From the human T2T-CHM13v2.0 reference genome, Homo sapiens, in assembly GCF_009914755.1 (NCBI RefSeq), contig NC_060940.1: DNA of 64,000 nt, one strand, 5' to 3'. Under the pieces are notes generated by a model that had not been told where the DNA came from, did no database searches, and saw only the letters and a program-made list of their open reading frames with translations. Each line of letters starts with the position of its first letter. Position 1 is the first letter of the stretch. Made by a program: the position numbers and the translations under genes. Shown here piece after piece: positions 39,542 through 39,941 of this stretch.

Positions 39542-39821
39542 GTATGATCTCGTGAAATCTTGAGAGAAACTGAATGACGAATGAAACTATTGTTCCTGTT
39601 TCACACAGAAGAAAACTGAGGTTAAAAGGGGTAAAGTAATTTTGCATGGCATGAAGTAGAAATTCAAAGTACAGGAATTTGAACTTGGTTCTGTCCTTTT
39701 CTGAAGCCCTTGACCACTATAGACTCAAACATCACCTTGTTTTTCCACTCATTCAACACTTTTTTTTTTAAATTATCTAATAGGTTGGCACTCATCATGA
39801 GCCCCTGTTCTCATTCTGCAA

Positions 39822-39941
39822 ATGGTGAAGCTCTCTATTGTCCTGACCCCACAGTTCCTGTCCCATGACCAGGGCCAGCTCACCAAGGAGCTGCAGCAGC
39901 ATGTAAAGTCAGTGACATGCCCATGCGAGTACCTGAGGAAG
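39822..39941 (+). CDS. NPIPB5: NPIPB first coding exon, derived from the penultimate ACSM1 coding exon
   Basis: [40 protein letters not shown] versus recalled ACSM1 [40 protein letters not shown]; donor AG|GTGAGT. Confidence 0.9.

What the first reader, a model, noticed from the sequence alone, without database searches (positions are those of the whole stretch)
39800..39941. A splice acceptor turned into a start codon: NPIPB exon 1 is a co-opted ACSM1 exon
Seen: a pyrimidine tract ccctgttctcattctgcAA sits directly before ATG GTG AAG. The peptide matches the acyl-CoA synthetase ACSM1 exon starting [16 protein letters not shown], so the ancestral state would be ctgcAG|GTG GTG AAG. Inference: two adjacent G>A changes destroyed the acceptor and created an ATG followed by G at +4, giving NPIPB a new N-terminus from an unrelated enzyme. 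The ACSM link has probably been noted before; the two-base mechanism is readable here.
Basis: partly seen in the sequence, partly recalled or inferred. Interest (0 to 1): 0.7.

Follow-up and report, generated by a model that had tools for sequence, protein, structure and literature searches.

The report
NPIP's ACSM1 exon and TANGO1 roots
The first coding exon of many human NPIP genes is a copied piece of the enzyme gene ACSM1 whose old splice site now reads as a start codon (the ACSM1 link is already published); it likely came along because NPIP likely began as a copy of the secretion gene TANGO1 sitting just behind ACSM1, which would give this fast-evolving family of unknown function a testable job.

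Summary
Confirmed: 15 of 15 NPIP-linked copies read CAA ATG where 8 of 8 other homologues, ACSM1 included, keep CAG|G. The ACSM1 origin of the exon is published.

Three corrections.
(1) Likely two steps, not one doublet. Monkey models lack the Met. Three of five siamang models splice straight onto it, implying CAG|ATG. The +4 G is ancestral.
(2) It is not a clean exon 1. One published cDNA enters it through an AG 38 nt upstream; others carry long leaders. An out-of-frame AUG lies 25 nt before the ATG. No evidence of initiation was found.
(3) The exon is a hitchhiker. ACSM1's last exon and decayed NPIP exons are collinear between this window and the DNA behind ACSM1. Camel and sheep models fuse ACSM1 to a downstream gene whose best relatives are TANGO1/MIA3 (E about 1e-90). 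Ape NPIP aligns to TANGO1's membrane and coiled-coil segments.

So NPIP is likely a truncated TANGO1 paralogue born beside ACSM1. My searches found only a passing MIA3 similarity in print. Interest 0.6, mostly for the origin.

The parts
38443..42448 (+). 3' end of an ACSM1-type gene carried inside the NPIP duplicon: part of the upstream intron, the 120-nt exon, the last intron, the last exon and the 3' flank (Alu insertions in between)
   Evidence: Collinear with chr16:20.555 Mb at 66-82%; closer to chr10:96.05 and chr11:3.43 copies, 83-88%
39444..39541 (+). Non-coding exon made from old ACSM intron sequence, spliced to the MVKL exon in cDNA A2_2
   Evidence: Table S5 row A2_2 read; its donor AG|GT is absent at ACSM1, chr22 and chr10:96 and present at chr11
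39628..39632 (+). Donor position (GGG|GT) that three siamang gene models appear to join directly to the ATG
   Evidence: P0034-P0036 end this exon with LRLKG and continue with MVKLS; window frame matches; inferred from predicted proteins
39760..39783 (+). Replacement splice acceptor: T run plus an ancestral TAG, 38 nt upstream of the dead acceptor
   Evidence: Used in cDNA A2_2 and apparently in siamang model P0037; 14 of 20 pyrimidines versus 10 of 20 at ACSM1 and chr11
39797..39868 (+). Out-of-frame upstream ORF (23 codons, A at -3) overlapping the MVKL start
39800..39821 (+). Old ACSM1 pyrimidine tract and dead acceptor (CAG > CAA)
39822..39941 (+). MVKL exon: copy of the second-last ACSM1 coding exon, GTG > ATG, phase-0 donor intact
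   Evidence: 16 nucleotide differences from ACSM1; 6 nonsynonymous and 1 synonymous codon changes on the NPIP stem
42145..42231 (+). Copy of the last ACSM1 exon, acceptor and stop codon intact, not in the annotated transcript
   Evidence: 14 of 28 residues identical to ACSM1, E 2e-6 (the tool prints the first GTG as M)
46052..46126 (+). MRVR-type first exon, the likely ancestral NPIP start
   Evidence: a homologue without its ATG lies 3.4 kb behind the ACSM1 exon
49657..49785 (+). NPIP membrane-segment exon, homologous to TANGO1 residues 1160-1204
   Evidence: starts at the same residue as the matching exon at chr1:221.879 Mb
53404..53503 (+). NPIP exon with a decayed homologue behind ACSM1
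   Evidence: 113 of 144 columns identical with flanks
56767..56871 (+). Coiled-coil exon homologous to TANGO1 about 1536-1570; not in the annotated NPIPB4 model; homologue behind ACSM1 has a stop
57886..58091 (+). Two NPIP exons with decayed homologues behind ACSM1
   Evidence: 93 of 120 and 73 of 93 columns identical with flanks

Best explanation
The MVKL exon at 39822-39941 is a copy of ACSM1's second-last coding exon in which CAG|GTG now reads CAA ATG; it likely travelled as a passenger in a duplicated block holding an ACSM1-type 3' end plus the gene behind it, a likely TANGO1/MIA3-derived ancestor of NPIP, and its ATG is predicted to be a weak, leaky start. Steps: (1) inferred: a copy of TANGO1's membrane and cytosolic exons came to lie just 3' of ACSM1 in an early placental mammal and gained its own short first exon. 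(2) Shown by collinearity, timing inferred: this ACSM-3'-end plus NPIP block was duplicated several times, and one lineage became LCR16a; the human copy behind ACSM1 is a broken remnant. (3) Inferred from gene models: GTG>ATG arose on the ape stem while the acceptor still worked. (4) Inferred: AG>AA came later. (5) Shown in one cDNA: splicing now uses a TAG 38 nt upstream, or the old intron stays as leader, so an out-of-frame AUG precedes the MVKL ATG. The intact phase-0 donor puts the exon in frame with the NPIP membrane exon.
For: Junction states 15 of 15 versus 8 of 8. Window 38443-58228 is collinear with the ACSM1 locus in 7 blocks at 66-82%, covering ACSM1's last exon and NPIP exons. Old copies at chr10:96.05, chr10:81.1 and chr10:80.4 carry the same ACSM-to-NPIP order. 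A capuchin model links the exon to NPIP-type repeats (P0043). Camel P0084 and argali P0125 models run from ACSM1's YPRK into the downstream gene. A profile of three such hoofed-mammal proteins returned 73 hits: 69 named TANGO1/MIA3 (best E 9e-96), the argali fusion, 2 uncharacterised alpaca proteins and 1 unnamed; plus or minus one by my count of name cells. Reindeer P0123 versus gorilla TANGO1: 49% over 219 residues, E 1e-55. Siamang NPIP versus TANGO1: E 9e-12 (membrane segment) and 2e-5 (coiled coil), in order; 0 of 100 shuffles reached the real score for each of 3 queries. The chr1 hit of NPIP-type proteins is the TANGO1 locus. A published legend places an ACSM2A duplication next to NPIP in dog and mouse lemur (PMC7419210 Fig. 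S15 legend). No Met in 5 of 5 Old World and 3 of 3 New World monkey models; Met in 5 of 5 siamang models, 3 of them joined directly to an upstream exon.
Against: The order of the two changes rests on predicted proteins; no ape or monkey DNA was seen. Camel and argali fusions are automatic models, good for adjacency only. The Pfam NPIP score of the hoofed-mammal proteins is borderline (27.8 and 30.1 bits, cut-off 27.5) and about that of pig TANGO1 (27.4), so the label does not prove orthology. The protein tree separates NPIP-like rows from TANGO1 at 100/99 but warns of long branches and holds no MIA2/cTAGE5. In the membrane segment siamang NPIP is closer to TANGO1 (55 bits) than to reindeer P0123 (46). 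One of 9 queries (P0007) had no TANGO1 hit; human NPIP hits are weak (E 1e-4, 3e-4). Distance to ACSM1 is uneven (0.29 in the upstream intron, 0.16 at the last exon), so the donor may be a lost ACSM1-like sister gene or a mosaic. Behind ACSM1 the membrane exon is not collinear: it lies inverted 14 kb away. A preprint reports no start codon in one orangutan clone, which needs a loss or sorting among copies.
Confidence: 0.7

Rival explanations
1. The exon was duplicated independently from ACSM1, landed upstream of an existing NPIP, and one GG>AA doublet turned it into an efficient new first exon.
For: All 15 human copies carry both changes, with no intermediate. Eleven of 55 isoforms are reported to start with MVKL. 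The frame is open in 15 of 15 copies.
Against: ACSM1's last exon and NPIP's own exons are collinear with the ACSM1 flank. The nearest relatives are chr11 and chr10:96 copies, not ACSM1 (96/95 support). Siamang models imply CAG|ATG. The exon is internal in A2_2.
Confidence: 0.1
2. The ATG is hardly used: MVKL is only the longest-ORF call on leader-rich or read-through transcripts, and protein starts further down (MFCC, MRVR/MRLR). This can hold together with the evolutionary history above.
For: Eleven of 12 MVKL cDNA 5' ends placed on the window give leaders of 28-3002 nt with 1-63 upstream ATGs if unspliced. The AUG at 39797 has A at -3 and its ORF overlaps the start, which has C at -3. The one isoform named B4 starts MFCC. 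Stem changes are 6 nonsynonymous to 1 synonymous. The authors call proteomic support sparse. None of the four antibody peptides in the 2017 preprint lies in this exon.
Against: G at +4; in-frame donor; two listed cDNAs start within 39 nt of the ATG. Peptide nearly unchanged from siamang to human (95-100%), although copies are young and gene-converted.
Confidence: 0.35
3. 16p13.1 is the true birthplace, as published for primates, and the NPIP-like DNA behind ACSM1 is a later insertion.
For: PMC7419210 maps the single macaque copy to 16p13.1. The remnant behind ACSM1 is broken and rearranged.
Against: The 16p13.1-region copy (chr16:14.75 Mb) itself carries ACSM intron and exon sequence, which must come from an ACSM gene. 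Dog, lemur, camel and argali all show ACSM next to the NPIP-like gene.
Confidence: 0.1
4. The TANGO1 likeness is compositional (membrane segment plus coiled coil), and NPIP arose de novo from the ACSM1 flank.
For: Human NPIP scores are low (30-32 bits). Coiled coils match loosely. A review calls NPIP possibly newly evolved.
Against: E 1e-55 and 5e-29 for P0123; 9e-12 and 5e-14 in a non-coiled segment for gibbon-family proteins; segments in order; shared exon start; 0 of 100 shuffles.
Confidence: 0.04

Closest known systems
MVKL start exon of NPIP from ACSM1 exon 12 (10.1101/2025.02.04.636496 = PMC12790995)
   Same: Same exon, same parent gene; seen in NPIPB and NPIPA2/A3 isoforms.
   Different: The passages I read call it an independent duplication and do not describe the acceptor-to-ATG change, the replacement acceptor, the second ACSM1 exon or the NPIP remnant behind ACSM1. 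Fig. S3 is a picture that I could not see.
Ape-specific NPIPB start codon (10.1101/116087)
   Same: ATG reported absent in monkeys and lemur and present in gibbon clones, matching; notes 16-27% similarity to MIA3.
   Different: It ascribes the ATG to non-coding repetitive DNA, places the MIA3 similarity at MIA3's N-terminal region and draws no origin from it in the section read. My alignments fall at TANGO1 1155-1604 and beyond.
TANGO1/MIA3 and the MIA2/cTAGE5 family of ER-exit-site proteins
   Same: Homologous membrane segment and second coiled coil; hoofed-mammal relatives also keep the first coiled coil and part of the proline-rich tail.
   Different: No SH3-like luminal domain; primate NPIP lacks most of TANGO1 1205-1480; long new C-terminal repeats; reported localisation is nuclear or perinuclear. 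Domain names are recalled.
Genes born by partial segmental duplication (HYDIN2, PMC5345166, search listing only; ARHGAP11B, recalled)
   Same: A truncated duplicate gains new ends, and single-base changes at splice signals remodel the gene.
   Different: Here the borrowed exon comes from the upstream neighbour carried in the same block, and the block is far older than the change.

Membership tests
ACSM1-derived exon | Sequence homology and same 120-nt phase-0 exon with donor | tested here: met
ACSM1-derived exon | Parent has CAG|GTG at the junction | tested here: met
   (L019), named by P0052
ACSM1-derived exon | ACSM1 itself, not a sister gene, is the direct donor | tested here: inconclusive
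   Groups with chr11 and chr10:96 copies apart from ACSM1; 0.29 distance in the intron
Acyl-CoA synthetase (working enzyme) | Whole AMP-binding and C-terminal domains | tested here: not met
   40 residues only; no Pfam hit
Efficient AUG start | Purine at -3 | tested here: not met
   C at -3
Efficient AUG start | G at +4 | tested here: met
   Present; 8 of 8 homologues have the following GTG codon already
Efficient AUG start | First AUG of the mRNA | tested here: not met
   At least 1 upstream ATG in 11 of 11 placed leaders and in A2_2
Efficient AUG start | Initiating ribosomes or N-terminal peptide | not testable with these tools
   None of the 12 papers listed showed it
TANGO1/MIA3 paralogue (descent) | Membrane-segment exon homologous, same exon start | tested here: met
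TANGO1/MIA3 paralogue (descent) | Cytosolic coiled coils in order | tested here: met
   Both in P0123; second one only in ape NPIP
TANGO1/MIA3 paralogue (descent) | Closer to TANGO1 than to MIA2/cTAGE5 | tested here: inconclusive
   P0123 is 37-49% to TANGO1 and 19-28% to intronless relatives recalled as CTAGE copies; no MIA2 among 73 hits; but the atlas ranks MIA2-like clusters first and no MIA2 row was in the tree
TANGO1/MIA3 paralogue (descent) | Intron positions conserved along the gene | not tested
   Only one exon start was compared
TANGO1 orthologue-type cargo receptor (function) | Luminal SH3-like domain | tested here: not met
   SH3_2 in P0135 and P0126, absent in P0122, P0123, P0027, P0067
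TANGO1 orthologue-type cargo receptor (function) | Proline-rich COPII-binding tail | tested here: inconclusive
   P0123 410-463 aligns to TANGO1 1723-1779; capuchin P0043 aligns to P0123 366-443 but not to TANGO1
TANGO1 orthologue-type cargo receptor (function) | ER-exit-site localisation and binding to cTAGE5/Sec23 | not testable with these tools
   Published localisation is nuclear or perinuclear

The most novel reading that the evidence does not exclude
NPIP/morpheus, the fast-evolving human core-duplicon family described as having no homologue, is a truncated TANGO1/MIA3 paralogue born directly behind ACSM1 in early placental mammals. Its birthplace survives as a broken remnant at 16p12.3. 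The ACSM1 exon is the fossil tail of its old neighbour, turned into an N-terminus in two datable steps. NPIP proteins may still act at ER exit sites as modifiers or decoys of the TANGO1-cTAGE5 export machine, with the positively selected exons being the membrane and coiled-coil segments.
Probability: 0.3. Interest if true: 0.85.

Novelty: new member of a known kind. Interest (0 to 1): 0.6.

Why it matters
The exon's ACSM1 origin is known and the two-base change is a small detail. What matters is where it leads. NPIP is among the fastest-evolving human gene families, its duplicon drives disease rearrangements on chromosome 16, and its function is open; a review lists it with no mouse homologue. 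Descent from TANGO1 (about 0.85 likely on my evidence, apart from any claim on function) gives named partners and a compartment to test. It moves the family's birthplace from 16p13.1 to the ACSM cluster and explains why ACSM genes sit beside NPIP in dog and lemur. The leader analysis also warns that annotated MVKL N-termini may be minor products.

Tried and rejected
Pfam on the 40-residue peptide gave nothing. An AMP-binding family search of the genome scored only 14 of 97 candidates and did not map exons at the dispersed loci. An unmasked comparison was swamped by Alu hits and was redone with masking. I looked for a human copy with only one of the two changes: 0 of 15. I tested the doublet as a rare event: 8 adjacent double changes seen versus 4.3 expected over 981 sites, so nothing special. 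I tested for purifying selection on the exon: none seen in 7 codon changes. I considered SMG1P4 read-through as the source of the leader; the 11 placed 5' ends all fall at 36820-39794, far past SMG1P4, so it is neither shown nor excluded. No CpG island was found in the window at my threshold, whereas A2_2's first exon lies in one at the chr16:14.75 Mb copy. Left open: the DNA further behind ACSM1, the NPIP cores at chr7, chrX and chr10q22, and the chr1 TANGO1 introns were seen only as search coordinates, not read. Literature searches: NPIP+ACSM1 (5 papers, 3 listed), NPIP+ACSM2A+duplication (2), NPIP+MIA3 (2), NPIP+TANGO1 (0), 'nuclear pore complex interacting' with cTAGE/MIA2 (none of 20 listed of 93 had the first term), five-term origin search (3 listed of 5), PF06409/TGO1/LCR16a (30 listed of 61). 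None showed a TANGO1 origin or the acceptor-to-ATG mechanism. Subscription papers were not searched.

Full report
Observation. The window reads ...CTGC AA ATG GTG AAG at 39816-39830, with a 120-nt exon and a GT donor at 39942; it encodes the 40-residue MVKL peptide, which matches ACSM2A residues 498-536 at E 8e-11. A search of the own genome returned 24 matches. One lacks the junction and was dropped. Fifteen are 96-100% identical and each pairs with one of 27 NPIP cores (rows at 97% or more of 35). All 15 read CAA ATG; the 8 others read CAG|G. The copy at chr16:20.555 Mb is ACSM1: its two last exons match the named human ACSM1 protein.

What is in print. [quoted passage not shown] S3 is a picture that I could not see). 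An earlier preprint reports the ATG absent in monkeys, lemur and one orangutan clone and present in four gibbon clones, and ascribes it to non-coding repeat DNA (10.1101/116087, section 5 and passages).

How the two bases changed. Only the +1 change makes the ATG; the +4 G is ancestral and -3 is C. With chr11 and chr10:96 as outgroups, 65 of 981 informative sites changed on the NPIP stem; one GG>AA was seen among 57 GG sites against 0.15 expected, so the doublet needs no special mechanism. A protein search gave 128 hits, 120 listed; I read the context of the first 50 and five more, and four ape models with 73% coverage did not print. Five of 5 Old World monkey models have Val. Three of 3 New World models lack Met (Val, Val, Leu). 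Five of 5 siamang models have Met. Four of the 5 Old World models enter at the Val from another exon, as an intact acceptor predicts. Three siamang models (P0034-P0036) join an upstream exon, whose human counterpart ends at a GT donor at 39631, directly to the Met; that requires AG immediately before ATG. The likely order is GTG>ATG on the ape stem and AG>AA later. This is inference from predicted proteins; I saw no primate DNA.

Is it exon 1, and is the ATG used? Table S5 of PMC12790995 has 12 MVKL rows, with cells cut at about 400 letters. In A2_2 the exon is internal: a CpG-island exon (found 5.3 kb upstream at the chr16:14.75 Mb copy), then 39444-39541, then an acceptor at 39784. That TAG is ancestral, but the T run before it is longer in NPIP copies. 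B11_1 and B3_2 read unspliced past the 39542 donor; B6_1 and B14_2 start within 39 nt of the ATG. I placed 11 of 12 5' ends on the window by eye: leaders of 28-3002 nt with 1-63 upstream ATGs if unspliced. An out-of-frame AUG with A at -3 sits 25 nt upstream, and its 23-codon ORF overlaps the start. By the scanning model (established knowledge) MVKL needs leaky scanning. The one isoform named B4 starts MFCC (that paper's paralogue names may not equal RefSeq's). Stem changes in the exon are 6 nonsynonymous to 1 synonymous. The authors call proteomic support sparse.

The exon is a passenger. After repeat masking, the ACSM1 locus is collinear with window 38443-58228 in seven blocks at 66-82%. The window holds ACSM1's last exon at 42145-42231 with acceptor and stop intact. 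Behind ACSM1 lie homologues of the MRVR first exon (ATG lost), of exons 53404, 57886 and 58056 (splice sites partly lost) and of a coiled-coil exon with a stop. The membrane exon is displaced and inverted 14 kb behind the ACSM1 exon. Older dispersed copies at chr10:96.05, chr10:81.1 and chr10:80.4 keep the ACSM-then-NPIP order; chr11:3.43 and chr22:17.72 keep only the ACSM part nearby. In the exon tree the NPIP copies group with chr11 and chr10:96 (96/95), apart from ACSM1, chr22 and chr10q22; the upstream intron is 0.29 from ACSM1 but 0.14-0.15 from those two. The donor may be ACSM1 or a lost sister gene. A capuchin model joins the exon to NPIP-type repeats and a tamarin model joins both ACSM exons, so the block predates the New World monkey split. 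PMC7419210 (passages and supplement legends) notes an ACSM2A duplication beside NPIP in dog and mouse lemur but treats it as a flanking duplication.

What the gene behind ACSM1 is. A camel model (P0084) and an argali model (P0125) continue from ACSM1's YPRK into a second gene. Its alpaca, reindeer and ibex relatives carry a precomputed Pfam NPIP label, borderline on rescanning. A profile of those three found 73 longer proteins, almost all named TANGO1/MIA3, best E 9e-96. Reindeer P0123 aligns to gorilla TANGO1 1146-1364 (49%, E 1e-55), 1478-1690 and 1723-1779. Of 9 queries, 8 hit TANGO1: siamang NPIP at 1155-1204 (50%, E 9e-12) and 1495-1604 (E 2e-5), human NPIP weakly (E 1e-4, 3e-4); 0 of 100 shuffles reached the real score for each of 3 queries, with a thin margin for the human one (30.0 against 26.9). 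NPIP-type queries hit chr1:221.879 Mb, which is a TANGO1 exon; NPIP's membrane exon starts at the same residue. The atlas lists a TGO1 cluster in which 77% of members carry the NPIP family, but ranks MIA2-like clusters first. A 24-row tree splits NPIP-like rows from TANGO1 at 100/99, attaching between mammalian and fish TANGO1, with a long-branch warning and no MIA2 row.

Novelty. The exon origin is known. A TANGO1 link is implicit in Pfam labels and mentioned as weak MIA3 similarity in the 2017 preprint. A review says no paralogues were identified outside primates (PMC6920530, passages). PMC9132208 and 10.1101/2025.07.09.663898 (passages) do not contain ACSM or MIA3; PMC12596725 (passages) does not contain ACSM. 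Searches found no statement of a TANGO1 origin, of the remnant behind ACSM1 or of the acceptor-to-ATG path. Subscription papers and database entry texts were not searched, so prior mention is possible.

Verdict. Observation confirmed; interpretation partly supported. Best explanation 0.7: passenger exon, two-step change, replacement acceptor, weak start, in a family likely descended from TANGO1 beside ACSM1. That NPIP still works at ER exit sites is a hypothesis (0.3) against published nuclear or perinuclear staining. TANGO1 domain names, CTAGE and ACSM2B labels and primate split order are recalled. Interest 0.6.

Noticed in passing
G000:C10:81.10-81.12 Mb and 80.38-80.40 Mb (L020, L021, L033-L036): Two old ACSM-NPIP copies keep an open membrane exon closer to TANGO1 than NPIPB4's; orthologous-looking gene models exist in gibbon, bonobo, macaque and orangutan (P0067, P0105, P0069, P0110). 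A possible overlooked NPIP subfamily.
   Followed up: partly
G000:C7:65.59-65.60 Mb, C7:56.83 Mb, C23:50.37-50.38 Mb: Further old NPIP-core homologues at 79-84% without the ACSM exon.
   Followed up: no
G000:C16:20539958-20540697 and C11:3386883-3387622: Membrane-exon homologues lying inverted relative to the nearby ACSM exon, 14 kb and 42 kb away; dog is reported to have two inverted NPIP copies.
   Followed up: no
window 39797-39821: In siamang model P0037 and human entry P0025 the upstream AUG is in frame with MVKL, implying a one-base difference that removes the competing uORF.
   Followed up: no
window 42145-42231: ACSM1 last-exon copy with open frame, acceptor and stop; found in 13 near-full copies but deleted at chr16:14.75 Mb.
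   Followed up: partly
P0122, P0084, P0178, P0179: Camelids repeat the membrane-exon motif up to four times and have extra diverged paralogues, an expansion that parallels the apes'.
   Followed up: no
G000:C5:80804211-80805503: Intronless TANGO1-like sequence, 31-42% identical, likely an old retrocopy.
   Followed up: no
L027/L028, G000:C10:96.052-96.055 Mb: An insertion 92% similar to the window repeat at 25926-27466 sits at the position of the T run upstream of the exon.
   Followed up: no
window 39780-40177, minus strand: The predicted lncRNA LOC112268174 exon in the given annotation overlaps the MVKL exon and begins 4 nt from the replacement acceptor; possibly mis-stranded reads.
   Followed up: no
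L015 (chr18 copy): Lacks 4 nt of the GTGA repeat at the donor but keeps GT.
   Followed up: no
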